Shown piece by piece: positions 8,593 to 30,141 of a stretch of 64,000 bases of DNA. The notes beneath the pieces were generated by a model. It was not told the origin of the DNA. It did not search any database and saw nothing but the letters and a program-made list of their open reading frames with translations. Positions within the stretch are counted from its first letter, which is position 1. Each line of letters begins with the position of its first letter. The position numbers were made by a program, and so were the translations under genes. Source of the DNA: an uncultured Candidatus Saccharibacteria bacterium (GTDB taxonomy: Bacteria; Patescibacteriota; Doudnabacteria; UBA920); the NCBI GenBank assembly GCA_964536745.1, contig CAZHYL010000002.1, forward strand, positions 68,969-132,968, read 5' to 3'.

Positions 8593-8621
8593 GCCGCTTG
8601 GTTAATCCGAGCGGTTTTTTT
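8593..8621 (+). terminator. Rho-independent terminator after rplY
   Basis: gccgcttggttaatccgagcgg followed by ttttttt. Confidence 0.55.
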
Positions 8622-8976
8622 CTTGTATTAAATCTTGCTTGATGTAGTGATCACATAATCCCCAGAAGAACCCTGTAGCTAAAGTAAATATACCCAAAGC
8701 GAAGCCAACACCTTCTTTGTCGTTGGGTTGATCCCAAAACCAAAACATTATTATCTGTCCAAATAGAAATAGGACAACTGCCGCAATTCTATAATCGGCT
8801 ACTTCGCCACTCATTCTTATCCCTAGCCTTAAAAAAAAGATTCCTTGAGCCAGAACCCATACAGCTAAATAGGGCGAGATCCTCGGAGCGTAAATGTTGT
8901 TGGTGAATGCGAGCTCGCATAGGGACATACCTAATAGTAAGACAAGTAAGCTGATGTACAATATCAAGTTTTTCAT
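8602..8976 (-). CDS. Hypothetical integral membrane protein
   Basis: 124 aa with four predicted hydrophobic segments. Confidence 0.5.
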   Translation of the reverse strand: MKNLILYISLLVLLLGMSLCELAFTNNIYAPRISPYLAVWVLAQGIFFLRLGIRMSGEVADYRIAAVVLFLFGQIIMFWFWDQPNDKEGVGFALGIFTLATGFFWGLCDHYIKQDLIQEKNRSD

Positions 8977-11010: not shown

Positions 11011-11238
11011 ATGGATAGTAAAATGATTCGATTGATGGACTTTGTTAACAGTCATCCTTTTGTTTGCTTGGTATCTTTCGTTTTAATTGGAATGTATTCA
11101 TACCTATCAGTCATCGTTGATATTTCTTTGGCAAAGAGAATGGTAGGTTACTCACTGATCGTACTTTGTACTAGCGGATCTTTACTTGTGTTGTTCAAGA
11201 TTTTGATTGGTCCAGACACCAAAAAACCACCTAAATAG
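11011..11238 (+). CDS. Small hypothetical membrane protein (two TM segments)
   Basis: GGAGGG RBS before the internal Met (MDSKMIRL...). The track ORF starts earlier, at 10987. Confidence 0.4.
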   Translation: MDSKMIRLMDFVNSHPFVCLVSFVLIGMYSYLSVIVDISLAKRMVGYSLIVLCTSGSLLVLFKILIGPDTKKPPK

Positions 11239-20340: not shown

Positions 20341-21141
20341 ATGAAAGTCACGATTTTAGGTTCAGGAACATGCGCCTCAAATTTACCAGGGATTGAAAAC
20401 CGCTTTCCACCGGGGTTTTTTGTTGAGTGGAATGGTGGGTCCATATTATTAGATTGTAGTGAAGGTATCCGGTTCAGGTTAGAAAAGATGGGAATAGATT
20501 ATAATCAAATTCATAATATTGCCATTACTCATTCGCATCCAGATCATTTTGCTTTGGTCCATTATCTTCAGTCGGTATTCTGTAAAAGTATGGTTGGACC
20601 AGATAAGAATAATGAAGTTCATATCTACGCCCCAAAACACATCGTAAAAAACTTTCCATTGCTTTGGTCTTTATACACTCAAGAGCGAGGTGAAGAATTT
20701 TTCGATTATCCTACATTGAAATTCCATAACATGCCGGACGAAACTGCTGTTGTTGGAAATGCAAAGCTTTCTGCTGTAAGTGTTTACCACGGATTTGGGA
20801 AAGTTGATGCAGTTGCATATAAGTTAGAGACTCCGGAAGGGACTGTTGTGTACTCTGGAGACTGCGGGGATAGTCCGGAAATCAGACAGATTGCAAAGAA
20901 TGCAGATTTATTTTTATGCGATACATCTGCAAGAATCGGCGATGCTAATAATGCTACGGGATATGGGCACTTAAATCCCAAGCAAGTTGGTGAAATTAGT
21001 ATGGAAGCAGAAGTAAAACGAGTGGCCCTCACTCATTACTTTGGAGTAGATTCTGACGATGCAATGCTGGCAGACTGTAAATCCTCTGGTTATTCTGGAG
21101 ATGTAATGGTAGCCAAAGATTTTCAAGTAATAGAAATTTAA
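20341..21141 (+). CDS. MBL-fold metallo-hydrolase (RNase Z / beta-lactamase superfamily)
   Basis: 266 aa with the HSHPDH metal-binding motif. Confidence 0.75.
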   Translation: MKVTILGSGTCASNLPGIENRFPPGFFVEWNGGSILLDCSEGIRFRLEKMGIDYNQIHNIAITHSHPDHFALVHYLQSVFCKSMVGPDKNNEVHIYAPKHIVKNFPLLWSLYTQERGEEFFDYPTLKFHNMPDETAVVGNAKLSAVSVYHGFGKVDAVAYKLETPEGTVVYSGDCGDSPEIRQIAKNADLFLCDTSARIGDANNATGYGHLNPKQVGEISMEAEVKRVALTHYFGVDSDDAMLADCKSSGYSGDVMVAKDFQVIEI

Positions 21142-21569: not shown

Positions 21570-22058
21570 ATGCTTACAAAACAAGAATTTATGGAGACTT
21601 TCAAATGGGAATTAGATACTCTATTAAGAGTTATCAAGGCAATTCCAGCGGATAATTACGATTACAGACCCCACGAAAAATCCAAAAGTGCTAAGGAGTT
21701 AGCAAATTCCTTGATTGCAGAAGTTTATATGACCACTGCTTTTTTAAAGGGTGAGTCTATTACTCAAGACAACGCAGGGGCATTCTTTTCAAAATCCCCG
21801 CAATCTGTGGAAGAAACGGCAAAAGATTTAGCCGAGGCTAACGCCAAATTTATAGCAGAGTTATCTCAAGTTTCAGAAGAAAATTTAAAAAATAAAGTTA
21901 CCTTTTTTCACCGCGAAACTACTATTGACGATGCAATTTTTAACATGATGCTGGATATCATCCATCACCGTGGCCAATTATCTGTTTACATTCGCTTAGC
22001 CGGCGGTTCTGTACCTAGTATTTACGGTCCATCCGCAGACGAGGAGTTTGCTGGATAA
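21570..22058 (+). CDS. DinB/YfiT-family (DinB_2) protein
   Basis: 162 aa with the C-terminal IIHHRGQLSVY motif typical of the DinB four-helix-bundle family. Confidence 0.6.
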   Translation: MLTKQEFMETFKWELDTLLRVIKAIPADNYDYRPHEKSKSAKELANSLIAEVYMTTAFLKGESITQDNAGAFFSKSPQSVEETAKDLAEANAKFIAELSQVSEENLKNKVTFFHRETTIDDAIFNMMLDIIHHRGQLSVYIRLAGGSVPSIYGPSADEEFAG

Positions 22059-22750
22059 TGCCGTTACCTAACCATTTAGCAATCATTCCTGATGGTAATC
22101 GAAGATGGGCAAAGGCTCGTCTTTTATTACCATGGCAAGGCCATGCAGAAGGAGCGAAACGCTTTTGGGAATTATCGGAATATCTAGCAACGACTTCAGT
22201 TTCTTTTGGGACCTTCTGGGCTGGCTCATATAGCAACCTATCTAATAGATCTGAAGAGGAAGTTAAATTCTTATTCCAGATTTTGGAGCAAGAACTTTCC
22301 GATAAAAAAGTCATAGATAGTTTAGAGAGAACCGAGACCAGATTTAGATTTATAGGTGAGTGGGCAAGTTTTAACAAGAGCACCAGTCTACCAGATACAA
22401 TTTCAGAATTAGAAAAGAAAACAGAAGGTTATTCAAAACACAACCTAACTATCTTGTTCGGATATGATGGTCAGCGAGAAATGCTATCAGCCGTAAATGA
22501 GCTACAAAAGAGTGGTGAAGAAGTAACCAAAGAAAACTTACGCAAGCATCTTTGGACAGCTGTACTGCCAGACGTCGATTTAGTTATTCGCACTGGCGGC
22601 GAACCGCATTGGTCTGCTGGATTTTTAATGTGGCAAACTGCTAATAGCCAGTTTTATTTCACTGAAGCATTATGGCCGGACTTTAAAGTTCCGCAATTAA
22701 AAACAGCGCTCGAGGATTTCGAGCGCCGTGAGCGCAGGCTAGGTAGGTAG
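22058..22750 (+). CDS. uppS: Undecaprenyl (isoprenyl) diphosphate synthase
   Basis: 230 aa: HLAIIPDGNRRWAK ... RTGGE ... C-terminal RERRLG. Confidence 0.9.
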   Translation: MPLPNHLAIIPDGNRRWAKARLLLPWQGHAEGAKRFWELSEYLATTSVSFGTFWAGSYSNLSNRSEEEVKFLFQILEQELSDKKVIDSLERTETRFRFIGEWASFNKSTSLPDTISELEKKTEGYSKHNLTILFGYDGQREMLSAVNELQKSGEEVTKENLRKHLWTAVLPDVDLVIRTGGEPHWSAGFLMWQTANSQFYFTEALWPDFKVPQLKTALEDFERRERRLGR

Positions 22751-22755
22751 CCGTT

Positions 22756-22983
22756 CTATTCGGTATTTGCTGGTGCTCTTTTGGAAAGCTCTATGCTTAC
22801 CTTTTTTGCCATCGATATCCTGATGGGCGATATACTGGTAAGAATAAATTCTTTATCCGATGCAGATTCTATCCCATCTGCCATCTCCCTAAGTTTCTTT
22901 GCCAACTGATTAACCCTGATGTTAGGCCCAGTCGGCCCACAGATAACATCAAACCCGAATTCCAATATTTGAGTACCCTGCAT
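22756..22983 (-). CDS. Island gene A: small protein of unknown function (about 75 aa; the track ORF extends to 22998)
   Basis: GGGAGGG RBS 6 nt before the ATG of MQGTQILEFGFDVICGPTGPNIRVNQ.... Last gene of a five-gene minus-strand operon and convergent with uppS, with only a 5-bp gap. Confidence 0.55.
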   Translation of the reverse strand: MQGTQILEFGFDVICGPTGPNIRVNQLAKKLREMADGIESASDKEFILTSISPIRISMAKKVSIELSKRAPANTE

Positions 22984-23001
22984 GACCATCCCTCCCATTT
23001 G

Positions 23002-23280
23002 TTACGGCTTTTTTCCGCAAACTTTTATGTACGTTGCAATTTGAAGTGCGTCCATACTATTAGACTTTCCGTCATTTTTAGTCACACATTCACTGACCGC
23101 AAATCTAATCTGTTCCCACTGCTTTGCACTTACTAGAATTTCTACATCGTTGAGTGCTTCCCTGATGGCAAGATACTGTGTAGCCATTTCTTTGGCCCGA
23201 TTGCTTATTTGAGCTGTTGATCTAACACCCAGAAGTGTTTTCCGCTCAATGAATAACGCATCATCAACATTTCTAAACAT
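23002..23280 (-). CDS. Island gene B: small helical protein of unknown function (92 aa)
   Basis: AGGAGGG RBS immediately upstream. No recognisable domain. Confidence 0.55.
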   Translation of the reverse strand: MFRNVDDALFIERKTLLGVRSTAQISNRAKEMATQYLAIREALNDVEILVSAKQWEQIRFAVSECVTKNDGKSNSMDALQIATYIKVCGKKP

Positions 23281-23291
23281 TTCTTACCCTC

Positions 23292-23588
23292 CTATAAACC
23301 CCTATATCCACCGATCCTTTCTTGAGGTTCACATGAATTCAGCCAAGCTGCTGCTGCGAAGAGATCGGCAAGTTGGAAGCCGTTTTTGTTCACAAATACA
23401 CATAGCTCGTTCAACTGTTTGTAGTGTCGGGCTCTAATAATTAAGTGTGGGTCATTGACCAACTCAGCAAGTCTAAACAGGAATTCCTCTCTTCGAGATC
23501 CTTCTCCTTTTGCCAAATTAACTAAATGCATTAAATTTGGGTTGTGAGGTGCCTCTTCAGATCCATTAAGAGCGCTTGATATACCCAT
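23292..23588 (-). CDS. Island gene C: small protein of unknown function (98 aa). Faint Nif11-like helical pattern (EEFLFRLAELVNDPHL...NELCVFVNKNGFQL).
   Basis: AGGGAGG RBS before the internal Met (MGISS...). The track ORF starts 16 codons earlier, without an RBS. Confidence 0.55.
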   Translation of the reverse strand: MGISSALNGSEEAPHNPNLMHLVNLAKGEGSRREEFLFRLAELVNDPHLIIRARHYKQLNELCVFVNKNGFQLADLFAAAAWLNSCEPQERIGGYRGL

Positions 23589-23642
23589 TAATTTGTCCTC
23601 CCTTTTTCGTTGTCTTGAAACTGAAAACAAAAACATCTAACT

Positions 23643-23882
23643 TTATACATCTAACGGAACAATATTGTAGGCCAGTACAGCTGTATATGTTGACACCGTG
23701 TATGGAGTCATACAAACAGACTTACGAATATGTCGTTCCGTTGGATGGTAAGATACAATACTTAAGCCACGATTTTCAGGTTTAAACTTTTCATTAGTTT
23801 TACAAATCCAATCGTTAACTTTTTTGTCTAGTCCTTCTCGTGAGTCAGACGACATTGTGATTACTCCTGAACTTTGATCCAT
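23643..23882 (-). CDS. Island gene D: small protein of unknown function (79 aa)
   Basis: GGGAGGG RBS upstream of MDQSSGV.... No recognisable domain. Confidence 0.55.
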   Translation of the reverse strand: MDQSSGVITMSSDSREGLDKKVNDWICKTNEKFKPENRGLSIVSYHPTERHIRKSVCMTPYTVSTYTAVLAYNIVPLDV

Positions 23883-23935
23883 TGGTGTGCCCTCCCGACT
23901 TATGTACCTATCGTTTCTGTTGAATAATAGAACTC

Positions 23936-24151
23936 TTAGTCCTTTATCTCAGACAGGTCTCTATACGGCTCGACCTGCTTCTCATCCTTTCTTACAGTGA
24001 CATCGATTTTGTAGCTAATTGTGTTTAGAAAATATCCAGCGGCCCTGACTGTTTCTAATTGCGAAACAAAGTCTTTGAATTCTTCCACAACTTTATCTAA
24101 ACTTGAGCTAGATTCAGATCTTAAGCTGAAAGTTTGTGATGTAGTTTTCAT
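23936..24151 (-). CDS. Island gene E: small protein of unknown function (71 aa; the track ORF over-extends to 24346)
   Basis: TTGGAGGATT RBS 4 nt before the ATG of MKTTSQTFSLRSESSSSLDKVVEEFKDFVSQLETVRAAGYFLNTISYKIDVTVRK.... First gene of the operon. Confidence 0.55.
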   Translation of the reverse strand: MKTTSQTFSLRSESSSSLDKVVEEFKDFVSQLETVRAAGYFLNTISYKIDVTVRKDEKQVEPYRDLSEIKD

Positions 24152-24643
24152 AATCCTCCAATGCAGTGTGATTTTCAAACAAAAACACATAACTAAAAAA
24201 GTTGTGTGTTTTTGTTTTGCTTCAAGCAGGTTCGTAAGCCGGATTTTGTGTCTACATGACAATCTATCTAGGCACCTTGTTGCCAAGCTGCTCGTGCTGC
24301 CCACCAAATTTGGCATTGCACTCAAGTAAGAATTTTGCCGTTTCACCCTTATAGTTTCCTATAAGGTTAATCCCGAAGGATTCCTTTGCATCTCTGCTTA
24401 GGCGTCACTGTTCGCATCTCTAGAGTTACCTCAGACGGGCGTTACCCGCTACTATTGTTAAAAGCTCATATGATACTTTCAACTTGAGTGTCCGGACTTT
24501 CCTCTTCAAACAAAGTAAGAAGTAGTCATGCGGCCTGCTTAAAGCTATTAAATAGTGCCACAGATTTGTGTTTTTGTCAATCAGAGAATCCATAATTTGA
24601 TGATATAATTAAGCTAAATTCACTAAATTAACACTATATTTTT

Positions 24644-25750
24644 GTGAAAATAGATAAATCTGATGTAGTTTTAGCGCATGATTCATTTACCCAGTATGGT
24701 GGAGCGGAAAGGGTAATAGAAGCGATCTCGGAAATATACCCAAATAGCGAAATATACACTCTAGCGACCGACCCAAAGGTTCTTAGGCATCTAGCTGGTA
24801 AAGTTTTTAAAACCAGTTTTTTAAACTTGTTTTATAAGATTATCCCTAAACTGCAGTGGTGGTTTCCATTCGCTCCTGCGGCTTTAAGATTTTTAAAAAT
24901 TAGAAATGCAAAAGTCGTGATTAGTAGTAGCTCTGCTTACATGAAAGGGCTCCGCAAGCCAGAGGGTAGTATTCATATAGATTATTGTCATACGCCAACT
25001 CGGTTTCTCTGGAGTGATATTGTCTATGCTGAAGGTGAAGTACCAAAAATCTTACGTCCGCTCATGAGAGCTTACTTATTATGGCTTCGCAAGTGGGACT
25101 TGAAAGCAGCAAGTAACGTTGATTATTTCATAGCTAACTCTAAAGAAGTTCAGAATAGAATCAAACGTTATTACAATCGCGAAAGTAAATTAATTTATCC
25201 TTATATTGATACAAACTTTTGGCGTAACTCTAAATCAAAACAAAATTATTATTTAGTCGCCGGCAGGCTTACTCCATACAAGGGTTACGAAAAAGTAATC
25301 GAAATATTTAACGAATTAGGTTTGCGTCTGCATGTCATTGGTGAAGGTAGATATTCAAGTTACTTGCAATCAATTGCTAACAGAAACATTATCTTTTTTG
25401 GTCGCGTTAGTGATAAAGAATTAAGAGATCAATACAGTTCTGCTCAGGCTTTTATATACCCTCAAGTTGAAGATTTTGGTCTTATGCCTCTTGAAGCGGC
25501 AAGTTGTGGTACCCCAACTATTGCCTTGGCCAAAGCTGGTAGTCTAGAAACTGTACTACCTGGTATCACGGGTGAATTAGTAGAAAACTTTGATTCAGAG
25601 ACAGTTAAAAACCTTATTCACAACTGGGATGTGACTAAATACAATCCAGAACGTATGAAACAACATGCTATGAGTTTTAGCAAAGATGTATTCCAAGAAA
25701 ATATTCGAAATTACGTAAACGAAGTTATCAACCATGCAAGTCGCAATTGA
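24644..25750 (+). CDS. Glycosyltransferase family 4 (GT-B, retaining)
   Basis: 368 aa with C-terminal EDFGLMPLEAASCGTPTIA, the GT4 E-x7-E region. Confidence 0.8.
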   Translation: MKIDKSDVVLAHDSFTQYGGAERVIEAISEIYPNSEIYTLATDPKVLRHLAGKVFKTSFLNLFYKIIPKLQWWFPFAPAALRFLKIRNAKVVISSSSAYMKGLRKPEGSIHIDYCHTPTRFLWSDIVYAEGEVPKILRPLMRAYLLWLRKWDLKAASNVDYFIANSKEVQNRIKRYYNRESKLIYPYIDTNFWRNSKSKQNYYLVAGRLTPYKGYEKVIEIFNELGLRLHVIGEGRYSSYLQSIANRNIIFFGRVSDKELRDQYSSAQAFIYPQVEDFGLMPLEAASCGTPTIALAKAGSLETVLPGITGELVENFDSETVKNLIHNWDVTKYNPERMKQHAMSFSKDVFQENIRNYVNEVINHASRN

Positions 25751-27995: not shown

Positions 27996-29120
27996 ATGAA
28001 ATCAAAAAGAAAAAAATATGTCCTTTTGGCGGGTGGGCTAACAGGTGGTCCTATAAAACCACTGCTTGCAGTAGTAAATAAATGGAGGTCCGAAGAACCC
28101 GACATCACTCCCGTTATAGTAGACATAAAAAAGTCTGTTAGTTTGAATATTGCTAAAAATGAAGGGATAGAATTCAAGAGAATAGTTGCCGGTAAGTTAA
28201 GACGTTATTGGTCCATCTATAATCTATTAACACCAATACTATTTGTAATTAGCTTGATACAATCCTTCATTCTAATCAGAAGGTATAAACCGGTTTTAGT
28301 AATGGGAGCAGGAGGTTTTGTGCAACTACCGTTGATTGTAATGGCTTGGGTTTGCAGAATTCCAAGAATGATTCACCAACAAGATGTTACAGTTTCTCTA
28401 TCGAATCAACTAGCTGCACCGTTTGCAAACCTAATTACAACAACTTTTGAGTTTTCGATAAGGGACTTTCCTCAAGGGACAGGTTTGGGAAATAAATATA
28501 TTAACGGTTCAAAAGTTTACTGGACTGGAAACCCAACGGATATTATCAGTGATAAAGTTTCCTCGAAGGATGCTAAGTCAAAGCTATCTTTGCATAACCA
28601 ACTGCCTGTTTTATTTATTTTTGGTGGTGGTTCTGGCTCGCAAAGCCTAAATAAGCTTATTACAGAGAATTTAAAAGAGCTTACAAAAGTTGTTCAGATT
28701 TTACATATCACTGGGATAGGGAAGCAAAAGCCTGTGGTGCACGAAAATTATCATAGCTTTGAATTTGCCGATAATATGGGTGATTTTTATTCTGCAGCCG
28801 ATATTGTGATAGCTAGGGCAGGGATTGGTACCCTTACAGAATTGGCAGAGTTTGGTAAACCCAGTATAATTGTGCCATTGCCACAGACTCATCAAGAAAT
28901 GAATGCAGAACTACTTTTCAGGACGAAATCAGCTCTTGTACTAGATCAGGAAGACTTGGATGCAAAAATCTTGATTAATGCAATTAGAAAGATTTTGTTT
29001 GACCCTAATTATGAAAAACAATTAGTGCATAACCTAAGAGTTATTTTTCCGAAACATGCGAAAGAGAAAGTTGTGGAATTAATCATTAAGTTAATCACTC
29101 ACCGTGGACGAAAAAAATAG
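27996..29120 (+). CDS. murG: Undecaprenyldiphospho-muramoylpentapeptide beta-N-acetylglucosaminyltransferase
   Basis: 374 aa. N-terminal G-loop LAGGLTGGPIKPL and C-terminal ARAGIGTLTELAEFGKPSIIVPLP fit MurG (GT28). Confidence 0.75.
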   Translation: MKSKRKKYVLLAGGLTGGPIKPLLAVVNKWRSEEPDITPVIVDIKKSVSLNIAKNEGIEFKRIVAGKLRRYWSIYNLLTPILFVISLIQSFILIRRYKPVLVMGAGGFVQLPLIVMAWVCRIPRMIHQQDVTVSLSNQLAAPFANLITTTFEFSIRDFPQGTGLGNKYINGSKVYWTGNPTDIISDKVSSKDAKSKLSLHNQLPVLFIFGGGSGSQSLNKLITENLKELTKVVQILHITGIGKQKPVVHENYHSFEFADNMGDFYSAADIVIARAGIGTLTELAEFGKPSIIVPLPQTHQEMNAELLFRTKSALVLDQEDLDAKILINAIRKILFDPNYEKQLVHNLRVIFPKHAKEKVVELIIKLITHRGRKK

Positions 29121-30141
29121 TCATGTAAAAGTTGGGTTCGCTTTTAGTGGAGCATCTACGAGATCAATTTTCTATATTGGTTTTTTAGAAGTGCTTAAAG
29201 AAAATGACTTTCCGATTGATTTTATTGCTGCTTTGTCTGGGGCAACTATAGTAGCAGCTAGTTATGCTTGCAACTCTATGCCACAGTTCAAGAACTTAGC
29301 ACTGCAAATCAACAAAGAAGTAGTTTTCAGTCTAATAGAGCGCAGTAAAGGGAAGGCAGGACTTTACCAATTAGGACAATTCGAAGAATTAATCAGATTT
29401 TACACAAAGAATAAAAATTTTGAGGATGTAAAACCAAGACTAGCTTTTGTGGCAACAGATATCGTTGCTGGAGAAGAGGTCGTTCTACAGGTTGGTGACT
29501 TAGCTAAAGCAATTTGTGCTTCATGTACCTTACCTGTTGTCTTTGAACCAATGCATTGGGGTAATAAGATCTTAGTAGACGGCGGAGTAGTGAATGTAGT
29601 CCCAGGGAACGTTGCAAGAGAAGCGAATGTAGATTTAGTTATCGGAATAGATTTACGCGCTACAAGACACGTCTTTAGCCCTTGGCAAATCTTCTTACGC
29701 AAACTGGTTAACAGTATTAGATTTATTCTTTGGCCTAGGAAGGCACGTATTTTCTGGCAAACCTTAACAGAGAAAATTAAGGATTCGGATTTCTGGCAAA
29801 ATCATTTAATGATGAGTAACTTAAATGATAAGATGAAAGACCCTAAAATTATGACTGTTATTAATAGATCACTAGACATTGCAATCGCTGCTCAACAAAA
29901 GAGCAAGTCTAAAAACTTTGATTGTGATTTGTTAATTAGTCCCGAATTAACAATGCCATTTTGGAGGAAAGCTCTTTTCTTAAGATTTACTCACTTTGAT
30001 AATATGAAAGATTATTATCAAGCTGGGCGCGATTCAGCTTTAGAAAATTTACCGAAAATGTGGCAGTTACTAAAAGATAAAGAGAAAGAAAAGCAAGACA
30101 AGGCCCAAATAGTCAAAGAGTTATTCGAAAAAAATATATGA
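29104..30141 (+). CDS. Patatin-like phospholipase-domain protein. The oxyanion and nucleophile motifs look degenerate.
   Basis: 345 aa. The DGG catalytic-Asp motif (ILVDGGVVNVVPG) is present. The GGxR block reads FSGASTRS, and the expected GxSxG region reads LSGATIVAAS. Confidence 0.6.
   Translation: MDEKNSHVKVGFAFSGASTRSIFYIGFLEVLKENDFPIDFIAALSGATIVAASYACNSMPQFKNLALQINKEVVFSLIERSKGKAGLYQLGQFEELIRFYTKNKNFEDVKPRLAFVATDIVAGEEVVLQVGDLAKAICASCTLPVVFEPMHWGNKILVDGGVVNVVPGNVAREANVDLVIGIDLRATRHVFSPWQIFLRKLVNSIRFILWPRKARIFWQTLTEKIKDSDFWQNHLMMSNLNDKMKDPKIMTVINRSLDIAIAAQQKSKSKNFDCDLLISPELTMPFWRKALFLRFTHFDNMKDYYQAGRDSALENLPKMWQLLKDKEKEKQDKAQIVKELFEKNI

What the first reader, a model, noticed from the sequence alone, without database searches (positions are those of the whole stretch)
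22751..24640. Compositionally distinct island: a five-gene operon of uncharacterisable small proteins with strong SD sites, between uppS and the glycosyltransferase/murG operon
Five consecutive minus-strand ORFs of 75, 92, 98, 79 and 71 aa are tightly spaced (3-53 bp). Each sits behind a canonical GGAGG-type ribosome-binding site at optimal spacing. Most host genes in this window have no recognisable SD (rpsB, tsf, secA and others). The block is visibly more GC-rich than its flanks. It abuts the stop of uppS with only a 5-bp gap. It is preceded by a 490-bp non-coding leader, unusually long for this compact genome. None of the five products matches a family I can name. Gas-vesicle, microcompartment-shell, WXG100 and toxin-antitoxin signatures are all absent. 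Gene C, and more faintly gene B, show a helical pattern reminiscent of Nif11-type domains (EEFLFRLAELVNDPHL ... NELCVFVNKNGFQL). Only four residues follow the GG, so a RiPP precursor is unlikely. Co-transcribed small proteins, foreign-looking composition and a fixed position next to cell-envelope genes fit a horizontally acquired module. Candidates would be a small multi-subunit assembly, an anti-defence set or an envelope-associated set.
Basis: partly seen in the sequence, partly recalled or inferred. Interest (0 to 1): 0.78.

Follow-up and report, generated by a model that had tools for sequence, protein, structure and literature searches.

The report
Swappable mini-genes behind the RNase P RNA gene
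Five real but completely unclassifiable small protein genes sit in the transcribed tail of the RNase P RNA gene of an uncultured ultra-small (CPR) bacterium, in a slot that holds from zero to five mostly unrelated genes in related genomes and appears to be exchanged between lineages.

Summary
The five minus-strand ORFs (71, 79, 98, 92 and 75 aa) are real genes. Each has a GGAGG ribosome-binding site in a genome that almost never uses one. A sister genome keeps all five intact, with pooled pN/pS of 0.33 (p = 4e-7).

It is the RNase P RNA gene rnpB (24219-24541, minus strand, Rfam 113 bits).

The genes lie between two minus-strand terminators. T1 is an AT-rich hairpin directly after rnpB. T2 is a GC-rich terminator embedded antisense in the last codons of uppS and supported by covariation. 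Only about 17 nt separate T1 from the first ribosome-binding site. I therefore infer a promoterless array expressed by read-through from rnpB.

In 16 related CPR genomes this uppS-rnpB slot holds 0 to 5 small genes. All are co-oriented with rnpB, nearly all have strong ribosome-binding sites, and most are unrelated in sequence.

Against the sister genome the block has dS 0.02-0.44, while flanking genes have dS above 1. That argues for recent exchange.

No family, phage, plasmid, defence or solved-structure match exists. One protein (D) has a single distant homologue, and it sits in the same slot. Protein function remains unknown.

The parts
24552..24580 (-). Putative rnpB promoter: TTGACA (24580-24575), 17-nt spacer, CACTAT (24557-24552). 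It ends about 10 nt before the rnpB 5' end.
   Evidence: Read directly from the sequence. The consensus scan did not list it because the -10 hexamer matches only 3 of 6 positions. The homologous position in L125 has TTGACA-17-TAATAT. Inference only.
24219..24541 (-). rnpB, bacterial class A RNase P RNA.
   Evidence: Rfam RF00010: 113 bits (gathering score 100), E = 8.6e-34, model positions 1-367 of 367, not truncated.
24177..24217 (-). T1: an AT-rich hairpin with an A-tract before it and a U-tract after it, directly after rnpB. It is probably a weak (leaky) intrinsic terminator or a processing hairpin.
   Evidence: 18-nt arms, 94% complementary, 5-nt loop. Folding energy -18.1 kcal/mol, z = -4.25. 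It is present in relatives with compensatory arm changes (L021, L024, L025, L032, L037) and loops of about 2-115 nt.
23936..24151 (-). Gene A, 71 aa, pI 5.1. SD GGAGG at 24159-24155.
   Evidence: The ORF is intact in L044, with changes at codon positions 1/2/3 of 8/6/17 and dN/dS 0.23. It is called as a gene on 23 contigs.
23643..23882 (-). Gene B, 79 aa. SD GGGAGG at 23896-23891.
   Evidence: dN/dS 0.27 against L044. It finds only its own cluster among 5.8 billion proteins.
23610..23642 (-). Remnant copy of the T1 right arm plus the post-terminator leader, in the B-C spacer.
   Evidence: 16 of 18 nt identical to the T1 right arm (D3/I2). 84% identity over 32 nt to the T1 right arm plus downstream leader of relative L023; E = 1.8e-4 in a 6.5-kb database. 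It is less well conserved in L044.
23292..23588 (-). Gene C, 98 aa, predicted helical. SD GGGAGG at 23602-23597.
   Evidence: dN/dS 0.14, with an in-frame 6-nt indel relative to L044. It finds only its own cluster among 5.8 billion proteins. The single-sequence AF2 model has pLDDT 50 and is unusable.
23002..23280 (-). Gene D, 92 aa, pI 9.0. SD AGGAGGG at 23293-23287, overlapping the stop codon of C.
   Evidence: dN/dS 0.54. The exhaustive HMMER search of 1.84 billion representatives gave one true homologue, P0013 (43% identity, E = 2.9e-6). P0013 also lies between rnpB and uppS in another CPR genome.
22756..22983 (-). Gene E, 75 aa. SD GGGAGG at 22996-22991.
   Evidence: It is 98% identical in nucleotides to the L044 copy, with 4 substitutions.
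22693..22729 (-). T2: a GC-rich intrinsic terminator (11-bp stem, then UGUUUUUAAUU) for the rnpB-strand transcript. It lies antisense inside the last codons of uppS (..LKTALEDFERR..).
   Evidence: Found by the terminator scan. Folding energy -22.5 kcal/mol, z = -3.3 on the minus strand, against z = -1.6 on the plus strand. Across 14 genomes, 5 of 9 pairs change on both sides, 89.7% of cells are paired, and 0 of 500 shuffles reach the observed values. Many G.U pairs are valid only on the minus strand.
22058..22750 (+). uppS (undecaprenyl-diphosphate synthase family). It is the convergent flank and the right-hand anchor of the slot.
   Evidence: Pfam PF01255 is recorded on the called gene. Relatives are 57-74% identical. 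The last ~70 nt (22680 to the stop at 22750) are 100% identical to L044, against 82.5% for the whole gene.

Best explanation
**What it is.** The locus is a promoterless array of five small accessory protein genes. It is housed in the 3' trailer of the RNase P RNA (rnpB) transcription unit of a CPR/Patescibacteria bacterium.

**How it is expressed.** Transcription starts at the rnpB promoter and makes RNase P RNA. A fraction of polymerases read through the weak AT-rich hairpin T1. They continue through A-B-C-D-E and stop at the strong GC-rich terminator T2, which is hidden antisense in the end of uppS. Each gene carries its own strong GGAGG site. That allows internal initiation on this transcript in a genome whose ordinary genes start without an SD.

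**How it evolves.** The stretch between T1 and T2 is an evolutionary slot. In the clade it holds 0-5 small soluble proteins of mostly unrelated sequence. Its content turns over by gain, loss and exchange between lineages, probably by recombination through the conserved flanks (rnpB/T1 on one side, the uppS end/T2 on the other). In this genome, C-D-E look like the older residents. A-B look like a later insertion at T1 that left a duplicate of the T1 right arm in front of C.

**Shown:**
- the identity of rnpB;
- both hairpins and their conservation;
- the SD contrast with the host;
- coding selection on the five ORFs;
- variability of the slot;
- the dS contrast between block and flanks.

**Inferred:**
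- co-transcription with rnpB;
- the recombination route;
- the order of acquisition.

**Function.** The biochemical role of the five proteins is not established. My best guess is a strain-level accessory role in a conflict with phage, host or competitors. I hold this guess weakly.
For: **The 'leader' is rnpB.** Rfam scores it above the gathering threshold over the full model.

**There is no room for an independent promoter.** T1 ends at 24177 and the SD of gene A starts at 24159. In L021, L023, L025, L026, L029, L030, L036, L037 and L125 the first slot gene likewise starts within about 24-40 nt of T1.

**Orientation.** All 22 slot genes in the 12 filled slots lie on the rnpB strand.

**T1.** It is conserved as a structure, with compensatory changes in relatives.

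**T2.** It is supported by covariation, and its G.U pairs fit only the rnpB strand.

**SD contrast.**
- In the window, 5 of the 8 GGAGG-plus-start-plus-ORF sites are these genes.
- 38 of 52 long ORFs have no SD.
- In relatives, 5 of 118 long ORFs have GGAGG, while nearly every slot gene has it.

**Coding.** All five ORFs are intact in L044. Pooled pN/pS is 0.33, binomial p = 4e-7.

**Variable slot.**
- The slot is empty in L024, L027, L031 and L032.
- It holds 1-3 genes elsewhere and 5 genes here and in L044.
- tblastn, blastp, HMM and hhalign find no significant homology between the window's genes and the relatives' slot genes.
- The only exceptions are D, and a weak D-like hit in L023.

**Exchange.**
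- Flanking genes have dS of 1.1 to above 2, while the block has dS 0.02-0.44.
- Elevated identity runs from about 22680 to rnpB.
- L026 and L028 show the same pattern: uppS 88% identical, the shared slot gene 94%, plus a 388-nt single-gene presence/absence difference.

**Insertion scar.** The B-C spacer is homologous to the T1 right arm plus leader.
Against: - There are no transcript data, so read-through of T1 is inferred from geometry alone. A promoter overlapping T1 or the 3' part of rnpB cannot be excluded.
- The -10 element of the putative rnpB promoter is poor.
- The dS contrast rests on one sister genome (L044). L044 is a Logan contig, so assembly chimerism is conceivable. However, its block alleles differ from the window's by 2-14%, so it is not a simple chimera with this strain.
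- The T1-arm remnant is short, and in L044 it has diverged.
- D's only homologue sits in the same slot of a distant genome. At least part of the content may therefore be old and vertically inherited but fast-evolving, rather than swapped.
- Nothing constrains what the proteins do. Both AF2 models were unusable (pLDDT 50 and 42).
Confidence: 0.6

Rival explanations
1. The five genes form an ordinary independent operon. Its promoter overlaps T1 or the 3' end of rnpB, and the adjacency to rnpB is incidental.
For: The consensus scan finds weak sigma-70-like matches at 24178-24150 and 24482-24454 on the minus strand. CPR promoters are poorly known.
Against: - The scan found 6 matches against 5.5 expected by chance.
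- The 24178-24150 match places its -10 element on top of gene A's SD and ATG.
- The same tight spacing from T1 to the first SD recurs in at least 9 other genomes, although the genes differ.
- All slot genes share rnpB's strand.
Confidence: 0.2
2. The genes are vertically inherited, lineage-specific genes that evolve very fast. The slot looks variable only because homology decays beyond detection, not because cargo is exchanged.
For: - D has a homologue (P0013, 43% identity) in the same slot of a distant genome.
- A D-like C-terminus occurs in the L023 slot gene.
- Relatives share a recurring small family in the slot: L022, L023, L028, L029 and L030.
Against: - Fast evolution predicts higher divergence than the flanks. 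Instead the block is much less diverged than its flanks at synonymous sites (dS 0.02-0.44 against more than 1).
- Four genomes have empty slots.
- There is a clean single-gene presence/absence difference between L026 and L028.
Confidence: 0.2
3. The block is the decayed remnant of a mobile element (integrative island, satellite or prophage fragment). The element would have targeted the 3' end of rnpB, as other elements target tRNA and tmRNA genes.
For: - A duplicated T1 right arm flanks A-B like an att scar.
- The T1 loop is an insertion hotspot; L022 has a 115-nt MITE-like insert there.
- Small ORFan genes with strong SD sites are typical of phage early regions.
Against: - No integrase or recombinase is among the called genes within about 8-10 kb on either side (Pfam lists).
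- There are no PHROG hits.
- No relatives appear in IMG/VR or in GenBank phages and plasmids.
- The same small-scale architecture recurs across the clade without any element-like genes.
Confidence: 0.15
4. The ORFs are chance reading frames in the rnpB trailer and encode nothing.
For: They have no homologues, they are short, and the AF2 models have low confidence.
Against: - Five out of five have optimally spaced GGAGG sites in an SD-poor genome.
- All frames are intact in L044 despite 2-14% nucleotide divergence and an in-frame indel.
- Pooled pN/pS is 0.33, p = 4e-7.
- D is conserved at the protein level in L125.
Confidence: 0.02
5. The block is a toxin-antitoxin, defence or anti-defence module. 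For example, acidic C followed 11 nt later by basic D would be a type II TA pair.
For: - Gene sizes, tight spacing and the acidic-then-basic order fit (pI 6.4 then 9.0).
- The block shows mobility and patchy distribution.
Against: - No PADLOC, Pfam or NCBIfam hits, even at permissive thresholds.
- The D homologue stands alone in its slot in L125, and six genomes have single-gene slots. Obligate pairs are therefore unlikely.
Confidence: 0.1

Closest known systems
Bacterial class A RNase P RNA gene (rnpB, Rfam RF00010)
   Same: The 323-nt segment 24219-24541 matches the full model above the gathering score. It carries the GAGGAAAGUCCGG and ACAAAAUCCGGCUUA conserved regions.
   Different: It is somewhat shorter than the model (323 against 367 positions, with several helices reduced). 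Unusually, it is followed on the same strand by protein genes that lie before the strong terminator.
Integron and CALIN cassette arrays
   Same: Both are arrays of promoterless, co-oriented, mostly ORFan small genes. Each gene has its own ribosome-binding site. The array is expressed from one upstream promoter, its content turns over among relatives, and new genes appear to enter at the promoter-proximal end (A-B next to T1).
   Different: There is no intI integrase nearby. The intergenic spacers are 11-54 bp, too short for attC sites. The driving promoter belongs to a stable-RNA gene. The only repeat is a single duplicated terminator arm.
Genomic islands or flexible islets next to tRNA and tmRNA genes
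   Same: Variable accessory cargo lies directly 3' of a conserved stable-RNA gene. Part of the RNA gene's 3' flank is duplicated. The conserved flanks allow replacement by homologous recombination.
   Different: The target is rnpB, not a tRNA or tmRNA gene. The cargo is tiny (0.3-1.5 kb) and has no integrase or mobility genes. It appears to be part of the RNA gene's own transcription unit.
Repeats and small ORFs in the 3' flank of E. coli rnpB (Reed & Altman, PNAS 1983). Recalled from memory; I could not retrieve the paper here.
   Same: Small ORFs and terminator-like repeats lie immediately downstream of rnpB.
   Different: These are unrelated sequences. I could not check the details, because the paper is not in the searchable library.
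Nif11-type leader peptides and dockerin type I repeats (sequence motifs only)
   Same: The segment EEFLFRLAELVNDPHL...NKNGFQL in C loosely resembles a Nif11 helix pattern. The last 23 residues of D are 52% identical to dockerin repeats of P0014.
   Different: Neither C nor D reaches any Pfam or NCBIfam model. D's homologue P0013 lacks the Ca-binding residues. These are motif-level resemblances, not family membership.

Membership tests
RNase P RNA, bacterial class A (for the 'leader') | Covariance-model score above Rfam's gathering threshold over the full model | tested here: met
   113 bits against a gathering score of 100, model positions 1-367, E = 8.6e-34. It is the only Rfam hit in 22600-24700 at E up to 1.
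RNase P RNA, bacterial class A (for the 'leader') | Catalytic activity on pre-tRNA, and association with the RnpA protein | not testable with these tools
   This needs biochemistry. No rnpA gene was looked for in the window.
Integron / CALIN cassette array | IntI tyrosine recombinase adjacent to the array | tested here: not met
   No Phage_integrase or recombinase Pfam family appears among the called genes from about 10 kb on the rnpB/glycosyltransferase side to about 8 kb on the uppS side.
Integron / CALIN cassette array | attC recombination sites (about 57-141 nt imperfect palindromes) between cassettes | tested here: not met
   The spacers are 53, 54, 11 and 18 bp. The repeat search finds only one half-copy of the T1 arm, in the B-C spacer. 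No dedicated attC model was run.
Integron / CALIN cassette array | Promoterless, co-oriented cassettes driven by one upstream promoter | tested here: inconclusive
   The geometry fits: about 17 nt between T1 and the first SD, and all genes on the rnpB strand. There are no transcript data.
tRNA/tmRNA-type integrative genomic island | Integrase gene plus direct repeats that duplicate the 3' end of the target RNA gene | tested here: not met
   There is no integrase. There is one short duplicate of the post-rnpB hairpin arm, but none of rnpB itself.
Nif11-type RiPP precursor (gene C) | Match to the Nif11 domain or to the NCBIfam Nif11-leader models, with a GG cleavage motif followed by a core peptide | tested here: not met
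   No Pfam hit at E up to 1 and no NCBIfam hit at E up to 10. Only 4 residues follow the GG.
Dockerin type I (C-terminus of gene D) | Match to PF00404, with paired Ca-binding loop-helix repeats | tested here: not met
   D has no PF00404 hit. It has a single 23-residue segment similar to the dockerin repeats of P0014. The homologue P0013 lacks the D-G and N ligands.
Known anti-phage defence or toxin-antitoxin systems | Match of at least one component to PADLOC, Pfam or NCBIfam models | tested here: not met
   All five give zero families in PADLOC and NCBIfam at E up to 10. Among the ten slot proteins from other genomes that were scanned, only a sub-threshold AbiTi hit appeared (E = 0.007, 14.6 bits).
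Phage or plasmid gene set | Homologues in phage protein families or on phage or plasmid records | tested here: not met
   PHROGs gives nothing below E = 0.1. IMG/VR gives none. GenBank phages and PLSDB plasmids give no tblastn match at E up to 0.1.

The most novel reading that the evidence does not exclude
The transcribed trailer of rnpB, between a leaky first terminator and a strong second one, is a dedicated landing-and-expression platform. A clade of CPR bacteria would use it to capture, test and exchange promoterless mini-genes without any integrase, or possibly to give birth to them de novo. This would be an integron-like function built on a housekeeping ribozyme gene. The strong SD sites would be the device that makes cargo translatable in an otherwise SD-independent genome.
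Probability: 0.2. Interest if true: 0.75.

Novelty: new variant of a known kind. Interest (0 to 1): 0.55.

Why it matters
CPR bacteria have tiny, streamlined genomes, so any place where they tolerate and exchange accessory genes is informative about how they adapt. Three things would follow if the model holds.

- The slot would be a compact, easily recognised marker locus (uppS, T2, cargo, T1, rnpB) for strain-level variation in this clade.
- It would be an example of protein genes riding on a stable-RNA transcription unit.
- It would be a natural case where SD-dependent and SD-independent initiation coexist in one genome.

It also corrects an annotation trap. Gene callers place a spurious 136-aa ORF over rnpB, and the RNA gene is easy to mistake for a leader.

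Tried and rejected
**Searches and analyses that led nowhere or were corrected**
- A concatenated five-protein query in the search for homologous proteins found nothing, not even the proteins themselves. That search was wasted.
- Strain contigs L001-L020 are at least 99.8% identical to the window, so they are useless for dN/dS.
- My first dN/dS for gene A used a frame shifted by one base. I corrected this.
- The metagenome scan with a uppS profile returned only distant relatives (55% identity or less). None has rnpB next to uppS and none has homologues of A-E.
- Single-sequence AF2 models of C and B had pLDDT 50 and 42. No fold search was worth running on them.
- PDB sequence and profile searches gave nothing below E = 0.09.
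- Literature searches for rnpB co-transcription, rnpB as an integration site, and 'downstream of rnpB' found nothing relevant.

**Ideas I considered and rejected**
- I suspected that A, B and E belong to the recurring small family seen in relatives' slots (L022, L023, L028, L029, L030). HMM and hhalign gave no support: scores below 1 bit, probability 0.1% or less.
- I considered D as a dockerin. Only a 23-residue motif matches, so I rejected it.
- I considered the duplicated 60 nt around the N-run in L026 as a second att-like repeat. It looks like an unmerged scaffold gap.
- I considered the five proteins as RNase P protein subunits. They are not basic, and they are absent from or different in relatives.
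Full report
**What is at the coordinates**

| Gene | Coordinates | Length |
|---|---|---|
| A | 23936-24151 | 71 aa |
| B | 23643-23882 | 79 aa |
| C | 23292-23588 | 98 aa |
| D | 23002-23280 | 92 aa |
| E | 22756-22983 | 75 aa |

The spacers are 53, 54, 11 and 18 bp. E's stop lies 5 bp from the stop of the convergent uppS gene (22058-22750). Each ATG is preceded by GGAGG or GGGAGG at a spacing of 3-8 nt.

That is exceptional for this genome. The pentamer GGAGG occurs 37 times on both strands of the 64-kb window. Only 8 of those are followed by a start codon and an ORF of at least 30 aa. Five of the eight are these genes, two are other small hydrophobic ORFs, and one lies inside murG. Of 52 long ORFs, 38 have no match of 4 nt or more to the SD consensus upstream.

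The compositional claim is weaker:
- Host genes average GC 0.376 +/- 0.017, and the A-E block is 0.400.
- A and B are host-like.
- GC3 of A, C and E exceeds the host maximum.

**The 'leader' is a gene**

The 492 bp between gene A and the divergent glycosyltransferase gene is not a non-coding leader. Rfam finds a complete class A RNase P RNA at 24219-24541 on the minus strand: 113 bits against a gathering score of 100, model positions 1-367, E = 8.6e-34. It is the only RNA family hit in the region even at permissive thresholds.

The 136-aa GTG ORF listed over it is spurious.

**Anatomy of the transcription unit**

Reading the minus strand, the elements come in this order:
1. A TTGACA-17-CACTAT promoter-like element ends about 10 nt before the rnpB 5' end. 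This is by eye only and the -10 element is weak. The homologous spot in locus L125 has TTGACA-17-TAATAT.
2. Directly after rnpB comes hairpin T1 (24217-24177). It has 18-nt AT-rich arms and the form A-tract / stem / U-tract. Its folding energy is -18.1 kcal/mol, z = -4.25.
3. Gene A's SD begins about 17 nt after T1.
4. After gene E comes T2 (22729-22703, followed by UGUUUUUAAUU). It is a GC-rich intrinsic terminator found by the scan. Its folding energy is -22.5 kcal/mol, z = -3.3 on the minus strand, against z = -1.6 on the plus strand.

T2 lies antisense inside the uppS codons for ..LKTALEDFERR... Across 14 genomes of the clade:
- 5 of its 9 pairs change on both sides.
- 89.7% of cells are paired, and no shifted register reaches more than 52%.
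- 0 of 500 shuffles reach the observed values.
- Many pairs are G.U, which would be A.C mismatches on the uppS strand.

T2 is therefore a real terminator for rnpB-strand transcripts.

There is no room for a conventional promoter between T1 and gene A. The few sigma-70-like matches are at chance level (6 found, 5.5 expected). I therefore infer that A-E are expressed by read-through of T1 from the rnpB promoter. This step is inference, not observation.

**The genes are real coding genes**

More than 20 metagenome contigs carry the identical locus. They are at least 99.8% identical to the window, so they carry no information about selection.

A diverged sister genome (L044, Logan SRR11567540) has the same five genes, all intact, with one in-frame 6-nt indel in C.

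| Gene | dN/dS against L044 |
|---|---|
| A | 0.23 |
| B | 0.27 |
| C | 0.14 |
| D | 0.54 |
| E | 0.84 (only 4 changes) |

Pooled pN/pS is 0.33, with 41 synonymous and 49 non-synonymous changes. The excess of synonymous changes has binomial p = 4e-7. My first calculation for A used a frame shifted by one base, which I corrected.

**Relatives: a variable slot**

A scan of one genome per species with the uppS protein gave CPR/Patescibacteria MAGs. Their record titles are inconsistent (Saccharibacteria, Doudnabacteria, Minisyncoccia). The best uppS identity is 73-74%.

The following loci have rnpB convergent to uppS and followed by the same divergent glycosyltransferase genes or other envelope-polysaccharide genes:
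- L021-L027
- L029-L032
- L036 and L037
- L125
- L044

More distant relatives do not have this arrangement.

What lies between uppS and rnpB varies:

| Slot content | Genomes |
|---|---|
| Empty | L024, L027, L031, L032 |
| One gene | L021, L025, L026, L029, L036, L037, L125 |
| Two genes | L023, L028 |
| Two genes plus a 13-codon remnant | L022 |
| Three genes | L030 |
| Five genes | the window, L044 |

Three properties hold across the clade:
- All 22 slot genes lie on the rnpB strand.
- Nearly all have GGAGG-type sites. Only 5 of 118 long ORFs in those loci do, even when scored generously.
- In ten genomes the first gene's ATG lies about 24-40 nt after T1. In L022 a 13-codon remnant ORF occupies that position.

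T1 itself is conserved as a structure. Arm changes are compensatory in L021, L024, L025, L032 and L037. Loop lengths run from about 2 to 115 nt, and the L022 loop holds a MITE-like insert.

The window's five proteins have no significant similarity to any slot protein of the relatives by any method:
- tblastn
- all-against-all blastp
- a profile of the one recurring family
- hhalign

**Evidence for exchange**

Between the window and L044, eight flanking genes are 80-86% identical in nucleotides, and their synonymous sites are saturated (dS 1.1 to above 2, dN/dS 0.02-0.05). The five slot genes are 86-98% identical, with dS 0.02-0.44.

Sliding-window identity rises from about 22680, inside the end of uppS, through to rnpB. 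It falls back to about 75-80% beyond it. The block is therefore younger than the genomes that carry it. I read this as recent recombination between lineages through the conserved flanks.

A second pair shows the same thing. L026 and L028 are 88% identical in uppS and 94% identical in the shared slot gene. They differ by a clean 388-nt segment that carries one extra gene.

Within the window, the B-C spacer (23642-23610) is a copy of the T1 right arm plus the sequence that follows T1 in relative L023:
- 16 of 18 nt match the window's own T1 right arm.
- 84% identity over 32 nt to the L023 sequence, E = 1.8e-4 in a 6.5-kb database.

This suggests that C was once the first gene after T1, and that A-B entered later at T1. 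The remnant is short and has diverged in L044, so I hold this point with moderate confidence only.

**ORFan status**

- Pfam, PHROGs, NCBIfam and PADLOC give nothing for any of the five.
- B and C find only their own clusters among 5.8 billion proteins.
- None of the five has relatives in IMG/VR, in GenBank phages or PLSDB plasmids, or in the PDB.

The one exhaustive HMMER search, run on D against 1.84 billion representatives, found a single true homologue. P0013 is 100 aa, 43% identical, E = 2.9e-6. It is encoded between rnpB and uppS in another CPR genome (GCA_020049755.1, L125) and has its own AGGAGG site. D thus belongs to a small slot-specific family.

D's last 23 residues also resemble dockerin repeats (P0014). 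D itself does not match the dockerin model, and P0013 lacks the calcium ligands. I treat this as a motif resemblance only.

The proteins are soluble (GRAVY -0.15 to -0.62) and not notably basic (pI 5.1-9.0). That argues against secreted or envelope proteins and against RNase P protein subunits. Single-sequence AF2 models of C and B were unusable (pLDDT 50 and 42).

**Interpretation**

The best-supported picture is a promoterless, SD-driven mini-gene array in the rnpB trailer, between a leaky terminator (T1) and a strong one (T2). Its cargo is gained, lost and exchanged within one CPR clade. What the proteins do is unknown. A strain-level conflict-related role is my guess, and nothing here tests it.

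The rivals stand as follows:
- **An independent operon.** Possible, but there is no room for a promoter.
- **Vertical fast evolution.** This fits D and P0013, but it predicts more synonymous divergence than the flanks, not less.
- **A decayed mobile element targeting rnpB.** This fits the scar, but there is no integrase, no phage signal and no element genes.
- **Chance ORFs.** Rejected by the SD sites and by selection.
- **A toxin-antitoxin or defence module.** There are no hits, and many slots hold a single gene.

**Comparison with known systems**

Functionally the arrangement works most like an integron cassette array: promoterless, co-oriented ORFan genes, one upstream promoter, and entry at the promoter-proximal end. 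It also resembles flexible islets next to tRNA and tmRNA genes.

It fails the defining tests of both. There is no integrase within about 8-10 kb, there are no attC-sized spacers, and no part of the RNA gene itself is duplicated.

I found no description of protein genes housed in an rnpB trailer in the searchable literature. From memory only, small ORFs and repeats were reported downstream of E. coli rnpB (Reed & Altman 1983), but I could not verify this here. A CPR ribosome study notes that some Parcubacteria lack the anti-SD motif (PMC9297842). That makes the 16S 3' end of this organism an important check.

**Verdict**

- The 'leader' is a mis-read RNA gene.
- The 'island' idea survives in a sharper form.
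- Novelty: a new variant of a known kind.
- Interest is moderate (0.55), limited by the unknown function and the lack of expression data.

Noticed in passing
window 22693-22729 (minus strand), inside uppS codons ..LKTALEDFERR..: A covariation-supported intrinsic terminator is encoded antisense within the conserved C-terminal coding sequence of uppS. Amino-acid changes in relatives (ALEDFER to AIEDFDS, AIAEYDR and so on) keep the stem paired. The G.U pairs fit only the rnpB strand.
   Followed up: yes
L022:2928-3090 (minus strand; loop of the hairpin after rnpB): The T1 loop carries an insertion of about 115 nt with its own perfect hairpin (GTCATCCTGACGAAAGTCAGGATGAC), which looks like a miniature mobile element. 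It is followed by a 13-codon ORF whose SD and start (TGGAGGATAATATGAAC) resemble those of window gene A.
   Followed up: partly
L028:1197-1584 versus L026:4129-4140: Two close relatives differ by a clean 388-nt segment next to the uppS stop that carries one 114-aa gene. Their shared slot gene is more similar (94%) than the flanking uppS (88%).
   Followed up: partly
window 8602-8976 (-) and 11011-11238 (+): These are the only other GGAGG-led ORFs in the window. Both are small (124 and 75 aa) and look like hydrophobic membrane proteins. They may be further accessory genes that use SD-dependent initiation.
   Followed up: no
window 20341-21141 (+): A 266-aa metallo-beta-lactamase-fold protein whose precomputed Pfam list includes PF23023 (Anti-Pycsar_Apyc1) as well as Lactamase_B_2. 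It could simply be an RNase Z-like or MBL hydrolase.
   Followed up: no
window 29104-30141 (+): A patatin-like phospholipase gene is wedged between murG and murC in the cell-wall operon. It is conserved in the sister genome L044.
   Followed up: no
window 23936-24346 (-): A mechanical 136-aa GTG ORF runs from inside rnpB into gene A. In L044 a gene caller extended gene A to 84 aa for the same reason. This is an annotation trap caused by the unannotated RNA gene.
   Followed up: yes
L026:4600-4720 and L030:10734-10909: Runs of N. In L026 the run is flanked by a duplicated ~60 nt of the T1 region, which looks like an unmerged scaffold gap rather than a biological repeat. In L030 the run covers part of uppS.
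   Followed up: partly
L022, L023, L028, L029, L030 slot genes (for example L030:10976-11224, minus strand): A recurring small family (70-131 aa) with a conserved W in the first helix, an S-H-A-I-like motif and a final hydrophobic strand occupies the uppS-proximal end of several slots. It has no Pfam, PHROG or PADLOC match.
   Followed up: partly
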